Shown here piece by piece: positions 6,458-45,513 of a stretch of 64,000 nt of DNA. The position numbers were made by a program, and so were the translations under genes. Origin of the DNA: Octopus vulgaris (Eukaryota); NCBI GenBank assembly GCA_951406725.2, contig OX597826.1, positions 8,866,001-8,930,000 on the forward strand, given 5' to 3'. The notes under the pieces are model-generated. The model was not told the origin of the DNA. It saw only the letters and a list, made by a program, of their open reading frames with translations, and did no database searches. Each line of letters starts with the position of its first letter. The stretch's first letter is position 1.

Positions 6458-6601
6458 AGAGAGAGAGAATGAGTGAGTGAGTGAGTGAGTGATATAGATG
6501 AATAGATAGATTTAGATACTCGTCATCAAGATAATAATAATGATAATAAAAATGGTAATACAACCCCAGTGTCACTTTGATAGCATGCACTGCTCTCATT
6601 C

Positions 6602-6656
<55 letters not shown>

Positions 6657-6658
<2 letters not shown>

Positions 6659-7040
6659 GATTAGTAAATATAAAGACTTGCTAATAGAAATTGAAAAAAT
6701 GTGGCATCTAAAGGCGACTACAGTACCAGTGATTGTAGGATCTCTAGGAATGATAAAAAAAAGTACTGAAACCTATTTGAAAATGATTCCAGGCTTACCA
6801 TCCCTACAGGAAGTGCAAAAAATCGTGTTAACTGGAACGGCTCATGTACTGAGAAGAGCATTATCGATGTGAAAACAACTTCCATTCATGAATTTATTTA
6901 TTCATTAATTTTTAAATACATATTTGTCTGTGAATTTGCGTGTGTAATCTGGGAATGCATACAATGAGCTTCTATGCCCTAGGTGTATGGAAAACACTCG
7001 GCGAGAAACGGAAGAAAATTTGAAAAAAGAAGGAAAAAAC
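6657..7040 (+). mobile_element. 5'-truncated R4/Dong-type non-LTR retrotransposon (end of REL endonuclease ORF plus 3' UTR) within (AAT)n
   Basis: KISKYKDLLIEIEKMW..PVIVGSLG..LQEVQKIVLTGTAHVLRRALSM* (stop 6872); (AAT)n on both sides. Confidence 0.85.
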
Positions 7041-7512: not shown

Positions 7513-8152
7513 TCTTCTACTGAACCGGGGTCATCCCTTGACCCTAGGGTCACAGCAGGTTCTCATCTCATGAAGAGTACACGGCGTAAAATGTGTGCGG
7601 AACCTAGCAACACTATTTTCTGAAGTTCTCCCACGTTAACACTGCAAGGGAGTTTGTTGAGCTGCTTATCAAGGCCCTTTTTAATTAGCCCTAATGCTCC
7701 AATCACCACTGGTGCTGTGCTGCTTTTCATTCCCCACATCTTGGTCACTTCTATTTCTAGGTCTTTGTACTTAAATAACTTCTCAACTTCTTTAACGGAC
7801 ACATTTCTCTCAGATGGTACTGTCACATCTATCATTAAGCATTTCTTATCTTTCCAATCTTTGATGATTATGTCCGGCCTGTTTGCCTTGATTTCTTTAT
7901 CGGTGTTGATTGGCATGTACCAGAATACTGTTATATCACCTTTTCCTGTCACAGTTTCAGGTTTATACTGGTATCATCTGAAGTTGGAAGCTGGTAGTGT
8001 TTACATATCTTCCAATGGATATATTGCGCTACTCTATCGTGTATATGAATATATTCGGTTTTTGCAAGCGCTGTGCATCCGGTTAAAATGTAGTCCACTG
8101 TTTCATCCTACTCATGAAACATTCTGCAGTTCGGGTCAGTGCCATCGTTCAT
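7513..8152 (-). mobile_element. R4/Dong-type 3' fragment: decayed CCHC knuckle, REL endonuclease and short 3' UTR
   Basis: Minus strand DPNCRM..ETVDYILTGC..HDRVAQYIHW, then ANRPDIII..IDVTVP..KEVEKLFKYKDL..PVVIGALG..HILRRVLFMR* (stop 7563); begins at (GAT/AAT)n. Confidence 0.85.
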
Positions 8153-20403: not shown

Positions 20404-21694
20404 CGAGGGACGTTCAGTAAGTAATGCCCCTGACCCACTTGTTGTTGTTTGATCTTGCTGAAATTTTGCATGTGCAATTATTCATATCTTTATAGATTAC
20501 GTGGCAAATTACAGCTCTGAACTAATTGTGGTTTCTGATTTACAGGTGTTTGAACTGAGTCAAGTGTGAAATGGAGCCTGTTGAGTGTCGAGCAGTGATC
20601 CGGGTTTTGTATTTGAAAGGACGCACACCACGGGAGACTTTTGATGAAATGAAAGTAACTTATGATAATGATGCCCCATCATATGACCTCGTAAAACGCT
20701 GGCATCGTGAATTCAAACATGGTCGGAACTCTGTGGAAACAGCCCCCAGAGCTGGTCACCCTCCTTCTGCCATTGATGAGGCATCTGTCCGTCAAGTTGA
20801 GGATGCCATTTTGGAAGATCGACGCATAACTATTCGCCAAATAGCCCATGAGGTCAAGATTAGTACCGGGTCTGTGGAAACTATCATTCATGACCATTTG
20901 CATATGCAAAAGGTGTCTGCCAGATGGATTCCCATGTTGCTCGCACCTTTCCAGAAGCAAGAACGCGTCGAGTGCTCGAGGATGAATTTGGAGATGTGCC
21001 AAGAAGATGAGTCAAAATTTTTCAAAAGTCTGATTACACAGGATGAAACCTGGGTCCATCACCATGATCCAGAGACCAAAGCCCAGTCAAGGCAGTGGAA
21101 ACACCGTAACTCACCTCCTCCAAAGAAGGCAAGGGTGCAGCCCTCCGCTGGCAAGGTCATGCTTACAGTCTTCTGGGACCAGGACGGAGTAGTGAAGACA
21201 GATTTCCTGGCAAAGGGTACCACAATTACAGGTGTCTATTATGCTTCACTTTTGAGGAAATTAAGAGAAGCTATCAAAATCAAGAGGCGTGCAAGATCAG
21301 CAAAGGCATCCTCCTCCTGCAGGACAACGCTCCGGTCCACAACTCGATGGTCGCCAGATCAGAAGCACAGGCGTATGGCTATGAACTCCTCCCCCAAACT
21401 CCTACTCTCCTGACCTTGCACCCTCGGATTTTCACCTCTTCCCAGCCATGAAGTTGTTTTTGAAAGGAAAGCGTTTCCCAGATGATGCAGCCTTGATTTC
21501 TGAAGTCACGTCGTGGTTGGAGGACCAAGCTAGGGTCTTCTACAAAAACGGTCTCTAGAGCTGCATCAAACGATGGGAGAAATGCGTAACTCTGGGTGGT
21601 TCCTATGTAGGAAAAGACTAATAACTGTGCCAAGTGTCGTTGCTCTACTGCTATGGGAAGTGGGTCAGGGGCATTACTTATTGAATGCCCCTCG
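20404..21694 (+). mobile_element. Mariner DNA transposon (DD34D), full length 1291 bp
   Basis: TIRs CGAGGGACGTTCAGTAAGTAATGCCCCTGACCCACTT / AAGTGGGTCAGGGGCATTACTTATTGAATGCCCCTCG; TA duplication. Confidence 0.96.
20571..21621 (+). pseudogene. Mariner transposase, frameshifted (~21290) with premature TAG (~21556)
   Basis: HTH region, WIPMLL, QDETW, then shifted frame QDNAPVH..YSPDLAPSDF (34 residues between 2nd and 3rd D); natural stop 21619-21621. Confidence 0.93.
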
Positions 21695-25410: not shown

Positions 25411-26505
25411 TGAAATTTTCTGTTAAACTTGGAAAGTCTGCTACAGAGACTTTGAGCACGCTTCAACAAGCTTAAGGCGATGAAGGTTGTACGCAAGGTT
25501 TCGAGGGGTACGGGTGCTTTAAAAGCGGAAGAACTTCCCTGAAAGACGGAAATGTGGTATTGTGCATCAAGAATTTGTTCCCGGGACCAAACTCTGAATC
25601 GAGAGTTCTACTGTGATGTTTTGAAACATCTGAGAGAGGACAATCGGCGAAAGTGACGGGATCGGTAGAGCACGAAAAATTGGATTCTTCATGATGGCTA
25701 TGCACCCTGTCACAGAGCTCCGCTCACTCGTGAGCTTCTCACGAAAAACATGGTATCGCTTCTCTACCCGTCCTGTTCGCCAGATTTAGCACCAGCAGAC
25801 TCTCGTCTCTTCCTCAAGATGAAAATGCAGCTCAAAGGTCGTCGTCGTTTTAACACCATTGTCGAGATCGTAGAAGGACCTCGACTCGCTTATGGAAAAC
25901 CACTTCTCAGGCCGGATTCCAAAAGCGACAGAAACGCTGAAACCGGTGTACTGTTGCGCAAGGTGACTATTTTGAAGGAGATGATATTAAAATTTAGGTA
26001 AATAATTTATTTCTTTATTAAACATAACTAGTCGTGGGAGTGGCTGTGTGGTAAGTAGGGTAAGTGTCTTCTACTATAGCCTCGGGCTGACCAACGCCTT
26101 GTGAGTGGATTTGGTAGACGAAAACTGAAAGAAACCCGTCGTATATATGTATATATATATATGTGTGTGTGTGTGTATGTATGTATGTATATATATATAT
26201 ATGTATGTATGTATGTATATATATATATGTATGTATGTATATATATATATGTATGTATGTATGTGTGTACTTACGTTTGTGTATCTGTGTTTGTCCACCC
26301 ACCATCGCTTGACAACCAATGCTGGTGTGTTTACGTCCCTGTAACTTAGCGGTTTGGCAAAAGAGACCACTAGAATAAGTACTAGGCTTACAAAGAATAA
26401 GTCCTGAGGTCGATTTGGTCGACTAAAGGCGGTGCTCCAGCATTGCCACAGTCAAATGACTGAAACAAGTACAAGAGAGTCGGGAAACTTTTTGATACAA
26501 CATAA
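25409..26505 (+). mobile_element. Old internally deleted mariner (different family) with its 3' end interrupted by a SINE
   Basis: VKLGKSATETL..FKSGRTSL..GIVHQEFVP..WILHD..SPDLAPAD..KGRR..QGDYFEGD remnants; TIR-like GTCGGGAAACTTTTTGAT resumes after the SINE. Confidence 0.8.
26035..26477 (+). mobile_element. SINE family A (head partly deleted) with putative AGTCG target duplication
   Basis: AGTCG at 26030-26034 and 26478-26482. Confidence 0.85.
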
Positions 26506-26685: not shown

Positions 26686-26823
26686 GTGGGCGCATTAGGT
26701 ATGATAAGAAAATATTCAGACAAATACGTAACAAAAACACCAGGGCTAACAAGTATATATAACATACAGAAAATAGCACTACTAGGCACCACACACATCG
26801 TCTGTAAAGTAATTTCAATACAT
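26686..26823 (+). pseudogene. R4/Dong-type ORF C-terminal fragment
   Basis: VGALGMIRKYSDKYVTKTPGLTSIYNIQKIALLGTTHIV, homologous to the 6657 and 7563 fragments. Confidence 0.7.
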
Positions 26824-26969
26824 AGTACTTATTTCATTGGTTTCTTGCGCCGAACCGCTAAGTTACGGGGACATAAACACTCCAACATTGGTTGAAAAGT
26901 GGTGGTGGTGGTGAGGGACAAATATAAACACAAAGAGACACACACACAAATATATATATATATATAAAT

Positions 26970-27666
26970 ATTTAGCAATTAAGGACAACTACTTAATAAG
27001 GAAAACTTAACAAGAAATTGTCAGGTAGATAGCGTAATAACCTCATAAGAGAAAAAATTTCGAAAATAATTATTTCTTATTGAACATATTAATTTATATA
27101 TAGAGGGCATTATACATACATGCCAGAAGGCATTATATATACATGCCAAACGCTAAGAGGGACAATTAGTCATTTCTACCAAAAATATTACTAATCCCAC
27201 CGAATGCAATTTTTCAAAGTAAGACATTTAAAAAAATATAGACCTGTATCACAGTGATTTCATACTTACGTACTCATCAGCAGGCCTTAATGCATTATAA
27301 ATAAACAACGACCCTGCCCCGCTTAAGTCGATCAGCTAACTGTTCAACATCAACGAAGCACATGGGTGAGTTTACATATATTACATCCGGTCAAATGGCA
27401 AACTTTTACGAATTGCATTTCGGGAGAGGAAAAGTTTTTTCGGAATAAAAATTTAGCAATTAAGGACAACTACTTAATAAGGAAAACTTAACAAGAAATT
27501 GTCAGGTAGATAGCGTAATAACCTCATAAGAGAAAAAATTTCGAAAATAATTATTTCTTATTGAACATATTAATTTATATATAATGACTAATTGTCCCTC
27601 TTAGCGTTTGGCATGTATATATAATGCCTTCTGGCATGTATGTATAATGCCCTCTATATATAAATT
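26970..27666 (-). mobile_element. Hammerhead element: 481 bp monomer, 133 bp direct terminal repeat and 84 bp 5' inversion
   Basis: 26970-27102 = 27451-27583; 27583-27666 = reverse complement of 27091-27174. Confidence 0.88.
27241..27286 (-). ncRNA. Type I hammerhead ribozyme (canonical core)
   Basis: GGCCTG-CTGATGA-GTAC-GTAA-GTAT-GAAA-TCA-CTG-TGA-TA/CAGGTC; GNRA loop II; AUA cleavage triplet. Confidence 0.9.
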
Positions 27667-28256
27667 TATATATATAAATATATACAACGAGCTTCTTTCA
27701 GTTTCCGTCTACTAAAGCCACTCACAAGGCTTTGGTCAGCCAGAGGCTATAGTAGAAGACACCTGCCCAAAGTGCCATGCAGTGGGGCTGAACCCGGAAC
27801 CATGTGGTTGAGAAGCAAGCTTCTTACCTCACATTCTCCTGGGAAGAGTAACAATTTTCGGTCTTCGGTTATTACTCATTTAATCAATATTTAATCCGAT
27901 AAATGACCAACCTGCAGCTCTCAAGATTTTCTAAATGGCATACCCAACGAAAAATTTACCTTGAATTCTTTTTAGCAGTGTGTTCTGCCAGATGGTGAGT
28001 CGTGTTTTATGCGGCCCACTTCCCGAAAACTGTTGTCCATGGCCACTTTATCGTTATATTCTTATAATTTTTTGTGGCAGCCATTCTCCTTCAGCAGTCT
28101 AGCATGGGATGTGGAGTGGGTACGGATCGCACATGGTAGCCACTTTAAATGCATGCATTTGATATAGACGAAGGTATGTCGTATGTAAGAAAGGGGCGGC
28201 CAAATTCTCTACCGCACATGGCAACCAAACTCCACTTTGAATTTTTACTGTATGAA

Positions 28257-40810: not shown

Positions 40811-41866
40811 GAGGGGCGTTCAATAAGTAATGCCCCTAACCCACTTCCCATAAGCAGTAGAGCAACGAAACTTGGCACAGTTATTAGTCTTTTCCTACAT
40901 AGGAACTACCCAGAGTTACGCATTTTCCCATCGTTTGATGCAGCTCTGGAGACCGTTTTTGTAGAAGACCCCAGCTTGTTCTTCCAACCACGACGTGACT
41001 TCAGAAATCAAGGCTGCATCATCTGGGAAACGCTTTCCTTTCAAAAACAACTTCATGGCTGGGAAGAGGTGAAAATCAGAGAGTGCAAGGTCAGGAGAGT
41101 AGGGGGCATGGGGGAGGAGTTCTGCACACTGCACCCTTGCCTTCTTTGGAGGAGGTGAATCACGGTGCTTCCACTGCATTGACTGGGCTTTGGTCTCTGG
41201 ATCATAGTGATGGACCCAGGTTTCATCCTGTGCAATCAGTCTTTTGAAAAATTTTGACTCATCCTCTTGGCACATCTCCAAATTCATCCTCGAGCACTCG
41301 ACGCGTTCTTGCTTCTGGAAAAGTGTGAGCAACCAGGGAATCCATCTGGCACACACCTTTTGCATATGCAAATGGTCATGAATGATAGTTTCCACAGACC
41401 CGGTACTAATCTTGACCTCATGGGCTATTTGGCGAATAGTTATGCGTCGATCTTCCAAAATGGCAGCCTCAACTTGACGGACAGATGCCTCATCAATGGC
41501 AGAAAGGGGGCGACCAGATCTGGGAGCTGTTTCCACAGAGTTCCGACCATGTTTGAATTCACGATGCCAGCGTTTTACAAGGTCATATGATGGGGCATCA
41601 TCACCATAAGTTACTTTCATTTCATCAAAAGTCTCCCGTGGTGTGCGTCCTTTCAAATACAAAACCGGATCACTGCTCAACACTCAACAGGCTCCATTTC
41701 ACACTTGACTCAGTTCAAACACCTGTAAATCAGAAACCACAATTAGTTCAGAGCTGTAATTTGCAACTTAATCTATAGAGATATAAGTAATTGCACATGC
41801 AAATCAAACATGCTAGATCAAACAGTTGCAAGTGGGTCAGAGGCATTACTTATTGAACGCCCCTCG
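40810..41866 (-). mobile_element. Second copy of the DD34D mariner, internally deleted (1057 bp)
   Basis: Same TIRs and TA duplication; TGA at codon 7, two 1-bp deletions, ~242 bp deletion replaced by TGTGCA. Confidence 0.95.
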
Positions 41867-43071: not shown

Positions 43072-43348
43072 GAAGGTTAGGGTGCAGCACTCACGATCGC
43101 TAGATCATGGGTGTAATTTCCGGACCAAGCGACGTCGTGTTCTTCAATAAAACACTTCATTTCACGTTGCTCCAGTTTGCTCGGCTGTAAATGGGTCACC
43201 ATGGGACGGAATAGCCTTCCGATCAAGGGGGAATCTTGGCCTGCTCGCCTAACCAGCAGGGGTGACATCATTCAGATGCTAAAACAATGGGAAGCGCATT
43301 GTGACCGGCTATGTGTAATTACATCGGACAGTCTAGTCGGTGGGATAT
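43072..43348 (+). mobile_element. Chimeric SINE: family C head/core plus tail shared with the family D copy at 54143
   Basis: GGTTAGGGTG..CACGATCG..AAACACTTCATTTCACGTTGCTCCAG then TTGGCCTGCTCGC..GAAGCGCATTGTGACC. Confidence 0.7.
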
Positions 43349-43421
43349 AGATAGAGCGGACGTAAATAATGTGGAGCGCCGCCCCTTCCGTTGTTGTTTT
43401 TTTTGTCTTGTTTTCTTTTTT

Positions 43422-45513
43422 TGGAGCAAAGTCCCATCTCGACCCAGGGTAACGTGGTGGTGGAACAATGTTGTTGACAGGGCTATTAGACAAAAGAAAC
43501 AGGCTTGGAAGGACTGGAAGAACGGTGGTAGCAGGGAAGTGTATCAGACTGCCAGAAGGGAAGCTAGGAGACAGGTTTATTTAGCCAGAGGGGAAGCAGA
43601 TAAGAAAAAATTTGCCAATGTTCTGCGCCGTGAGGACCAAAGACTTGAGGTATTTCGTGTTGCAAGACAGTGTGTGAAAGAGAATCGTGATGTGGTAGGA
43701 GACAAATGTGTTCGCATGGATGATGGTTCACTTGCGCTAAATGAGGATGCAAAGAGAGAGGTTTGGAGATGCCACTATGAAAGGTTGCTGAATAAAGATA
43801 ATGAATGGGATGAAGAGAGTCTGCCGAATGTCGACCCAACAGAGGGACCAGCTATCCGAGTTGACAGTTCTTTGGTAGTTAAGGCAATTAGAAGCATGAA
43901 GACAGGGAAAGCCCCAGGCCCATCAGGAATTACTGCAGAGATGCTCAAAATATCTGGCAGTGTCGGCTATAGTCTAGTCACCCGTATAGTTAACCAGGTG
44001 ATACACGAAGGAGTCATACCCAATGACTGGTGTAGCAGCATAATAGTCAACTGCTACAAAGGTAAAGGTGACACCCTAGATACAAATAATTACAGAGGTA
44101 TCAAGCTGTTGGATCAGGTAATGAAGGTTACGGAGAGGGTCATAGCCCAACTGATTAGGGAGAGAGTCAACTTGGACGAGATGCAGTTTGGTTTCGTGCC
44201 AGGGAAAAGCACCACTGATGCCATATTTCTGGTGAGACAGCTGCAGGAGAAATACCTAGCCAAAGATAAACCTCTGTACCTGGCTTTCGTTGACATGGAG
44301 AAAGCCTTTGACAGGGTCCCCCGATCCCTTATCTGGTGGTCAATGAGGAAACTAGGAATAGGTGAATGGTTAGTGAGAGCTGTACGAGCCATGTACAGGG
44401 ACGCTATTAGTAAGGTGAGGGTTGGCAACGAGTACAGTGAAGAATTCCGAGTAGAGGTTGGGGTCCACCAAGTTTCAGTCCTCAGCCCCCTCCTATTTAT
44501 CATAGTCCTCCAAGCAATAACGGAGGAATTCAAGACAGGTTGCCCCTGGGAGCTCCTCTATGCTGATGACCTTGCTCTAATTGCTGAGTCACTATCAGAA
44601 CTGGAGGAGAAGTTTCAGGTGTGGAAGCAAGGATTAGAATCGAAGGGCCTTAGAGTCAACCTAGCTAAAACCAAAGTTCTAATAAGTAGGAAGGTAGACA
44701 AATCACAAACACCTTCAGGTTGATGGCCCTGCTCGATCTGTAGAAAAGGCGTAGGTATAAACTTTCTAAGATGCACCAAGTGTAAGCTATGGACACATAA
44801 GAGGTGCAGCAATGTCAAAGGAAGGCTAACTAGGAAGATAATTTTTGTATGTGGCAGATGCTCAGGAGCAATAAACACTGAAAATACGCAGAGTCCAACC
44901 TTGCCACATTCCAGGGAGAAAAACTAGAAATAGTTGATAGCTTCCGTTAACTAGGTGACCAAGTCAGTAGCGGGGGCGGGTCTGCTGAAAGCGTAACTGC
45001 TAGAGTAAGAATAGCCTGGCCAAAGTTCAGAGAGCTCTTACCTCTGCTGGTGACAAAAGGCCTCTCGCTCAGAGTAAAAGCAGATTGTATAACGCATGTG
45101 TACGAACAGCCATGCTACATGGCAGTGAAACATGGGACGTGACTGCTGAGGATATGCGTAAGATCGCAAGAAATGAAGCCAGTATGCTCCGATGGATGTG
45201 TAATGTCAGTGTTCATACTCGACAGAGTGTAAGTACTTTGAGAGAAAAGTTGGATCTAAGAAGCATCAGTTGTGGTGTGCAAGAGAGACGTTTGCGCTGA
45301 TATGGTCATGTGGCGAGAATGGATGAAGATAGTTGTGTGAAAAAGTGCCACACCCTAGCGGTTGAGGGAACCTATGGAAGATATAGACCCAGGAAAACCT
45401 GGGACGAGGTGGTGAAGCACGACCTTCGAACTTTAGGTCTCACCGAGGAAATGACTAGAAACCGAGACCATTGGAAGTATGCTGTGCGTGAGAAGACCCG
45501 GCAGGACAGGTGA
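43422..45513 (+). pseudogene. RTE ORF2 (RT plus inserted PHD-like finger), disrupted by stops and frameshifts
   Basis: Open to TGA 44721-44723; further lesions near 44900, 44948, 45080, 45298; endonuclease domain lost. Confidence 0.9.

What the first reader, a model, noticed from the sequence alone, without database searches (positions are those of the whole stretch)
26970..27666. 481-bp hammerhead monomer whose tandem continuation is flipped (5' inversion)
Seen: after the 133-bp direct repeat, the next 84 bp are exactly the sequence that should continue the tandem, but inverted, at the 5' end relative to the ribozyme strand. It holds the cleanest hammerhead in the window (GNRA loop II, AUA site, G10.1-U11.1 wobble). 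Inference: twin-priming-like integration from a greater-than-unit-length RNA.
Basis: partly seen in the sequence, partly recalled or inferred. Interest (0 to 1): 0.7.

Follow-up and report, generated by a model that had tools for sequence, protein, structure and literature searches.

The report
Ribozyme retroelement with flipped 5' end
A young copy of a many-copy, 481-base non-coding repeat carrying a hammerhead (self-cutting RNA) motif sits here as 1.4 units with its last piece flipped, likely because both strands of the target primed copying of one RNA, which would give a handle on the open question of how Penelope-type retroelements make inverted ends.

Summary
There is an exact 133-bp direct repeat at period 481, an exact 84-bp inverted copy, and a complete type I hammerhead on the minus strand (0 of 5000 shuffles match it). 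One correction: 72 bp continue the tandem and 12 bp overlap the repeat's end. The insert sits in the TA tract of a host repeat inside an 11-15-bp target duplication. Public contigs show a many-copy family joined head to tail, with three other inversion junctions at different breakpoints, so this inversion is not fixed. The element fits animal non-LTR retrozymes, likely moved by Penelope-like (PLE) enzymes. Inverted 5' ends are known in PLEs, but there the 3' end is mirrored; here the flipped piece is the upstream continuation, as in L1 twin priming. The target's 11-base match to the RNA lies exactly at the inversion point. That same match makes a later DNA-level flip between 12-bp inverted arms fit the locus equally well, so twin priming is likely (about 0.55), not shown. 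Cleavage, transcription and circles are untested; the motif is predicted to fold best as a dimer. New variant of a known kind; moderate interest.

The parts
26823..26969 (+). Left half of the host interspersed repeat, ending in its CA/TA tract
   Evidence: BLAST to more than ten paralogues in the window at 72-86%; alignment of 6 copies
26957..26969 (+). Left target-site duplication (13 bp; 15 with two bases shared with the element; 11 bp from 26959 under the shorter reading)
   Evidence: Longest match between the two junctions is 15 bp, 26957-26971 / 27667-27681; both readings
26970..27450 (-). Complete 481-bp non-coding monomer, 33% GC; RNA sense taken as the hammerhead strand
   Evidence: Period 481; six-frame translation full of stops; GC 0.326
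26970..27102 (-). First copy of the 133-bp direct repeat (unit positions 1-133)
27102..27147 (.). Internal 23-bp tandem duplication (91% alike)
   Evidence: family D4
27240..27287 (-). Type I hammerhead motif; predicted cut between 27247 and 27246; U1.7 at 27240 and loop-II terminal A at 27266
   Evidence: family variants at 10.1 and 11.1 keep a purine-pyrimidine pair
27451..27583 (-). Second copy of the direct repeat (pseudo-LTR-like partial unit, positions 1-133)
   Evidence: Identical to the first copy, including a base that is the minority letter in the family (27038/27519)
27572..27583 (+). Inner arm of a perfect 12-bp inverted pair (unit positions 122-133); contains the 11-base match to the target duplication
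27583..27666 (+). Flipped segment, unit positions 205 down to 122; head-to-head junction at 27583 with one shared base
   Evidence: spacer 27584-27654 is the exact reverse complement of 27103-27173
27655..27666 (+). Outer arm of the 12-bp inverted pair; element-derived overlap or, under the shorter reading, the right target duplication
27667..27679 (+). Right target-site duplication (13 bp, to 27681 if 15)
27667..27833 (+). Right half of the host interspersed repeat
   Evidence: BLAST to paralogues at 77-89%; motif found in 14 copies including this one

Best explanation
This is a 1.4-unit insertion of a many-copy, 481-bp non-coding repeat with a type I hammerhead motif, likely an animal retrozyme moved by a Penelope-like reverse transcriptase, and its flipped 5' piece was likely made during insertion by twin priming on one longer-than-unit RNA. 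Shown: the anatomy, the target duplication in a TA tract, the family's head-to-tail junction and other breakpoints. Inferred steps: (1) tandem loci are transcribed and cut by the hammerhead, probably working as a dimer, into multimers or circles; (2) a GIY-YIG endonuclease nicks both strands of the AT-rich target 11-15 bp apart; (3) the plus-strand end primes cDNA at unit position 1, inside the RNA, and runs 614 nt through the junction to position 133; (4) the minus-strand overhang anneals to the same RNA at positions 123-133, its best exact match in the unit, and primes a second cDNA that stops at 204-205, 72 nt short of the next ribozyme cut; (5) the two cDNA ends are joined head to head over one shared base and gaps are filled. 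This copy has one hammerhead only, so it would not release a unit-length RNA by itself.
For: Geometry: the flipped piece's outer end (122) lies 12 nt from where the forward copy stops (133); an independent stop would fall that close in about 25 of 481 positions. Kojima 2010 describes this layout as twin priming. The 15-nt target overhang's longest exact match in the unit is 11 nt at 123-133; next best sites are 9 and 6 nt, and the other strand gives at most 8. Target duplication: 15-bp match at both ends; 0 of 13 other host copies carry that interruption. Youth: no mismatch in 217 duplicated bp, leaving little time for a second event. Family: 18, 1224, 57 and 1316 contigs laid in four runs; an X1 contig bridges the 481-to-1 junction with 92 and 106 letters at the depth of the hammerhead contig (128.5 v 123.2); depth folded on the unit varies 2.1-fold in X16 with no fall-off from position 1. 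Three further head-to-head joints, at unit positions 329>175, 392>169 and 402>196 with 1-2 shared bases, plus one loose end of the same polarity; no tail-to-tail joint listed. A PLE protein nicks and extends both strands at AT-rich DNA and primes inside the RNA in vitro (PMC11167929). Two copies of the 48-mer have the double hammerhead as their lowest-energy fold, -30.5 v 2 x -12.4 kcal/mol.
Against: The locus is also an exact flip of a 71-bp spacer between perfect 12-bp inverted arms. Under the 13-15-bp duplication the priming junction has no strict microhomology and needs a primer slip to explain the 12-bp overlap, whereas 95% of inverted L1s have microhomology there; under the 11-bp reading the match is perfect but the target must already have held two interruptions. 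By duplex energy with G-U pairs the site near 394-413 is as good as 122-133 (-7.9 v -7.6 to -7.8). The other breakpoints are not clearly at good annealing sites for TA-type primers: only 402 ranks high (top 2-13%); 329, 392 and 103 do not. The extra joints are single contigs with 27-29 letters on the short side, and the reference could only display joints into its own flipped piece. Folded depth varies 58-fold in X2 and 6.9-fold in X8. In L1 systems, 5' inversion is rare for elements moved in trans (1 of 5554 Alu). No PLE open reading frame was found in the ten window frames scanned.
Confidence: 0.55

Rival explanations
1. Ordinary PLE double-ended insertion: each target strand primes on its own RNA molecule (or at a second preferred start near position 122), both cDNAs are 5'-truncated and are joined head to head. 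The adjacency of the two breakpoints is then chance or due to the shared TA-rich motif.
For: PLE insertions often carry an inverted 5'-truncated copy; the anole PLE protein extends both strands, has two start sites and is predicted to be a dimer. Depth is highest in the bin holding position 122 in X8 and X16.
Against: In the described cases the inverted copy mirrors the 3' end and the two ends differ by a 30-40-bp tail; here they differ by 121 bp and the flipped piece shares only 12 bp with the direct repeat. About 5% chance for the adjacency.
Confidence: 0.18
2. A plain 1.43-unit insertion came first; later a replication template switch or recombination between the TA-rich 12-bp inverted arms (one in the element, one in the target duplication) flipped the 71-bp spacer.
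For: Arms 27572-27583 and 27655-27666 are perfect reverse complements and the spacer is flipped with no gain or loss; an 11-bp target duplication reading fits; the 11-base match explains the place just as well.
Against: The insert is very young; the reading needs a target with two interruptions where 0 of 13 paralogues have one; other copies show different head-to-head junctions and no reciprocal junction was listed (weak). The mechanism is recalled; my one search for it gave a single off-topic listing.
Confidence: 0.17
3. Self-priming (fold-back) on an antisense template, as proposed for rotifer Penelopes, made the inverted end.
For: Proposed for head-to-head PLE junctions in PMC3846280.
Against: That model rests on 18-38-bp palindromes at the junction and a mirror image of the adjacent sequence; here the longest palindrome near the junction has 5-bp arms of TA and the flipped piece is not the mirror of its neighbour.
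Confidence: 0.04
4. The inversion is an assembly or library artefact in a high-copy repeat.
For: No shown contig bridges 27583 (32 of 2634 pieces shown), and X1 and X8 have no depth on the flipped piece; duplicated parts are perfectly identical.
Against: Host repeat halves and the target duplication close cleanly round the whole insert; the runs need not be the same individual; similar junctions occur in independent runs.
Confidence: 0.04

Closest known systems
Animal non-LTR retrozymes (Cervera and de la Pena 2020, PMC7229834; Li, Clavereau and Pollet 2026, bioRxiv 10.64898/2026.07.22.740005)
   Same: Non-coding, low-GC unit joined head to tail, one canonical type I hammerhead per unit (helix I 6-7 bp, helix II 4 bp, palindromic helix III), high copy number, proposed PLE mobilisation.
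   Different: 481 nt is above the 170-400 nt of the 2020 paper though within the 51-972 bp of the 2026 preprint; this locus has one hammerhead, not two; no inverted 5' end is described in the parts I read; transcription and circles untested here.
Endonuclease-bearing Penelope-like element insertions with pLTR and inverted pLTR (PMC8557442, PMC3846280, PMC11167929)
   Same: Partial tandem forming a pseudo-LTR, head-to-head inverted piece at the 5' end, target duplication of about 8-15 bp, AT-rich or microsatellite target, hammerhead.
   Different: No ORF; the inverted piece is the upstream continuation, not a mirror of the 3' end; no 30-40-bp tail; the hammerhead is canonical rather than the minimal PLE type with long helix II and a bulge (PMC4209133); no sign of a fixed 3' end.
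5'-inverted L1 insertions made by twin priming (as described in Kojima 2010, PMC2912911)
   Same: Inverted 5' segment continuing the 3' segment, short microhomology at the inversion junction, 10-17-bp duplication round the whole insert.
   Different: No poly(A) tail or TT/AAAA site; template longer than one unit; non-autonomous element, whereas trans-mobilised Alu and SVA rarely invert; likely a different enzyme class.

Membership tests
Animal non-LTR retrozyme | Type I hammerhead with intact core in the unit | tested here: met
   of 23 variant rows only one (27273, position 10.1) lies in the motif and it keeps the pair
Animal non-LTR retrozyme | Head-to-tail tandem organisation | tested here: met
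   1.43 units in the window; junction-bridging contig in X1 at hammerhead-level depth
Animal non-LTR retrozyme | At least two consecutive units each with a complete hammerhead (the 2026 preprint's test for an active locus) | tested here: not met
   One hammerhead at this locus; other loci could not be read, no genome held
Animal non-LTR retrozyme | Non-coding, GC under 45%, short monomer | tested here: met
   481 bp is outside 170-400 nt but inside 51-972 bp
Animal non-LTR retrozyme | Self-cleavage in vitro | not testable with these tools
   Prediction only: hammerhead-compatible monomer fold about 0.5% of the ensemble; dimer fold is the minimum
Animal non-LTR retrozyme | Expressed as linear and circular monomers | tested here: inconclusive
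   Only contigs of runs not on record as RNA were available
Penelope-like element (autonomous) | ORF with reverse transcriptase and GIY-YIG endonuclease | tested here: not met
   No ORF in the insert; at most 5 in 100 laid contigs run on into unlike sequence
Penelope-like element insertion signature | Inverted copy mirrors the 3' end (inverted pLTR), optional 30-40-bp tail | tested here: not met
   Flipped piece is positions 122-205, direct repeat 1-133
Penelope-like element insertion signature | AT-rich or microsatellite target with short duplication; partial tandem | tested here: met
   two X1 loose ends also run into TA tracts
Penelope-like element insertion signature | Sequence shared with the pLTR of an autonomous partner | not testable with these tools
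   No genome held; no second copy in the window
Twin-primed 5' inversion | Inverted segment continues the forward segment, on the RNA-5' side, inside one target duplication | tested here: met
Twin-primed 5' inversion | Microhomology between target overhang and RNA at the outer end of the inverted segment | tested here: inconclusive
   11 nt under the 11-bp duplication reading, 0 strict under the 13-15-bp reading
Twin-primed 5' inversion | Inversion arises at insertion (no unflipped allele; breakpoints differ between copies) | tested here: inconclusive
   Breakpoints differ between copies (3 joints); alleles of this locus not seen

The most novel reading that the evidence does not exclude
This retrozyme family is routinely inserted by twin priming on multimeric or circular RNA with no fixed 3' end, so the target overhang chooses both priming sites. 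The inverted ends of PLE-type insertions would then be twin-priming products in general, with the mirror-image pLTR a special case, and the many inversion junctions of this one family would map where PLE reverse transcriptase primes and whether templates are bounded by ribozyme cuts.
Probability: 0.3. Interest if true: 0.62.

Novelty: new variant of a known kind. Interest (0 to 1): 0.4.

Why it matters
How PLEs form tandem and inverted ends is called undefined in PMC8557442, and PLE mobilisation of retrozymes rests on co-occurrence and pLTR similarity. A young, many-copy, non-coding family with target duplications and varied inversion breakpoints is a ready dataset for both questions: breakpoint geometry separates one-RNA from two-RNA priming, and the span of inverted pieces tests whether the template is a ribozyme-cut multimer or a circle. 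As a single locus it is suggestive only; its class and the existence of inverted 5' ends are already known.

Tried and rejected
No whole genome is held, so copies could not be read whole. Rfam: no hammerhead among the 150 of 199 matches shown for the window or the 9 matches for the element. Pattern scans for the hammerhead found 0 loci in metagenome contigs and 0 in viral contigs. Earlier findings: nothing by sequence, place or a long word list. No RNA holder listed; run X1 is only guessed to be RNA, so its near-identical contigs covering 473 of 481 positions are not used as evidence of expression. 4 of the 24 listed runs were laid; missing cover on the flanks and on the flipped piece in X1 and X8 says nothing on absence. 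Testing whether the other four breakpoints sit at TA-primer annealing sites gave no consistent signal. Compensation in helix I of a second subfamily (change at position 1.3) could not be tested because the partner base was not shown. No tRNA gene in the window. Rejected: autonomous PLE end (no ORF, even cover round the unit), canonical inverted pLTR (wrong segment), other hammerheads in the window. PMC6007223 held nothing relevant; PMC5785218 is not held. No supplements were read; consensus libraries in the supplements of PMC8557442 and PMC7229834 could already hold this family. The resemblance of the host repeats to an octopus genome is recalled and was not tested.

Full report
Observation. 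The direct repeat is exact over 133 bp (26970-27102 / 27451-27583, period 481) and the inverted repeat exact over 84 bp (27091-27174 / 27583-27666). In unit coordinates (1 = 26970) the plus strand reads 1-481, 1-133, then 205 down to 122. So 72 bp continue the tandem and 12 bp (122-133) occur on both sides. No other copy lies in the window. The unit has 33% GC and no ORF.

Ribozyme. On the minus strand 27287-27240 carries a full type I core: helix I 7 bp, CUGAUGA, helix II 4 bp with G10.1-U11.1 and a GUAA loop, GAAA, an 11-nt palindromic helix III and an A-U-A site cut after 27247. It is the only core found by three descriptors. 0 of 5000 monomer shuffles and 0 hits in 100 window shuffles reach its 16 pairs. 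Rfam does not score it. Helix sizes match the canonical metazoan type I rather than the PLE minimal type (PMC4209133, passages). It has U1.7 and a loop-II terminal A, the proposed tertiary pair, though U1.7 can also pair with A2.7 (PMC11875169, passages). As a monomer it is predicted to misfold, the core pairing with helix III; the hammerhead-compatible fold holds about 0.5% of the ensemble. Two copies have the double hammerhead as their minimum-energy fold, -30.5 against 2 x -12.4 kcal/mol. In family contigs only 1 of 23 variant rows lies in the motif: position 10.1 is A in 18%, 45% and 43% of depth in X2, X8 and X16 and 0% in X1, giving A-U; loose ends show a second subfamily with a 2-nt centre in helix III and, in one contig, C11.1. 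The 88% threshold hides more divergent copies. Activity is not shown.

Insertion site. The flanks are the two halves of a host repeat with many paralogues in the window, and the insert lies in its TA tract. A 15-bp match brackets the insert (26957-26971 / 27667-27681); 0 of 13 other host copies carry that interruption. A shorter reading (11 bp, 26959-26969 / 27655-27665) is also possible. At the 3' junction the target resembles the sequence that precedes position 1 in the tandem, which suggests priming inside a longer RNA.

Family. 20 of 24 listed runs hold the unit or part of it, in two coded organisms; I laid 4: 18, 1224, 57 and 1316 contigs. An X1 contig bridges the 481-to-1 junction (92 and 106 letters a side) at the same depth as the hammerhead contig. 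Depth folded on the unit shows no decline from position 1 in X16 (2.1-fold range) or X1 (3.8-fold) but is uneven in X8 (6.9) and X2 (58); summed contig depth is a crude measure. At most 5 in 100 contigs run on into unlike sequence. This fits a circularly permuted tandem unit, not the end of a long coding element. The window's base at 27038 and 27519 is the minority letter in the family yet is shared by both repeats, consistent with one source template. Three joints into the flipped piece come from other breakpoints: 329>175 and 392>169 in X2, 402>196 in X16, with 1-2 shared bases; one X2 loose end at 27553 is the reverse complement of family sequence near 27284-27320. All four are head to head like this locus; no reciprocal joint was listed. 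They are single contigs with 27-29 letters on the short side, only 23 of 102 loose ends and 32 of 2634 pieces were shown, and the reference favours joints into its own flipped piece. They suffice to say the inversion is not fixed, and little more. No shown piece bridges this locus's own junction.

Mechanism. PLE insertions often carry an inverted 5'-truncated copy, but it mirrors the 3' end, with an optional 30-40-bp tail (PMC8557442 passages; PMC3846280 passages; PMC8969392 passages). Here the flipped piece is the upstream continuation and starts 12 nt from the forward stop, which chance would give in about 25 of 481 positions. That is the L1 twin-priming layout (PMC2912911 passages). The target overhang's longest exact match in the unit, 11 nt, lies at 123-133. 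An anole PLE protein nicks and extends both strands at AT-rich DNA, primes inside the RNA, and its hammerhead cuts only with protein (PMC11167929, parts 1-2 of 4), so the chemistry is available. The template needs at least 686 nt; the inner end (205) is 72 nt short of the next cut (277). I put one-RNA twin priming at 0.55.

Against it. 27572-27583 and 27655-27666 are perfect 12-bp inverted arms round a spacer flipped without gain or loss, so a later DNA-level flip explains the locus, and the 11-base match, equally well; youth of the insert and the single-interruption target weigh against it (0.17). Under the longer duplication there is no strict microhomology at the priming end. By duplex energy a site near 394-413 equals 122-133, and only one of the four other breakpoints ranks high for TA-type primers. 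Independent priming on two RNAs in the ordinary PLE manner stays open (0.18). Fold-back self-priming lacks its junction palindrome (0.04); an artefact is not excluded by reads (0.04).

Comparison. The element works like, and meets the testable structural features of, animal non-LTR retrozymes (PMC7229834 passages and Discussion; bioRxiv 10.64898/2026.07.22.740005 parts 1-3 of 5). This locus fails the two-hammerhead test for an active source, and cleavage and circles are untested, so membership is likely, not shown. It is not an autonomous PLE. I found no paper on twin priming in PLEs or retrozymes (3, 3 and 4 listings, none on this; PMC11722881 passages had nothing on inverted retrozyme ends), and none on this family; the library lacks most subscription papers and I read no supplements. 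Earlier scan notes from other genomes report PLE-type inverted ends on non-coding tandem units; they are unchecked leads that lower the surprise.

Verdict. Real, well-formed and informative, but a variant of known parts: retrozyme-type unit, PLE-type targeting, L1-type inversion geometry. Interest 0.4; 0.62 if twin priming on multimeric RNA proves to be the family's rule (probability 0.3).

Noticed in passing
window 20559-21413 (+) and 40916-41683 (-): Two similar broken mariner-type transposase frames (Mos1 HTH_48 in both, Transposase_1 in the first).
   Followed up: partly
window 43305-44723 (+): 472-aa stop-to-stop frame with a reverse transcriptase domain (RVT_1, E 5e-29); looks like a non-LTR element of the RTE kind (recalled), not tested as a partner.
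   Followed up: partly
window 6516-6872 (+) and 7563-7973 (-): Two related frames that resemble the C-terminal restriction-like endonuclease end of non-LTR elements (recalled); no Pfam hit.
   Followed up: partly
window 26044-26384 and 26823-27833: A second copy of the host repeat lies in opposite orientation about 440 bp to the left, forming a long imperfect inverted pair round the insert's left flank (I1 and I3). The host repeat has at least 14 copies in the window.
   Followed up: no
window 27102-27147: The 23-bp internal duplication seems variable in the family: an X1 loose end at 27113 looks like a copy with one unit that then runs into a TA tract.
   Followed up: no
window 27655-27674: The outer junction of the flipped piece forms a perfect 20-bp AT-only palindrome with the flank, with ATT on both strands at its centre, the motif cut by the anole PLE protein.
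   Followed up: partly
window 27235-27335 (loose ends): A second, more divergent subfamily exists with a 2-nt helix III centre and a change at helix I position 1.3; its partner base was not shown.
   Followed up: no
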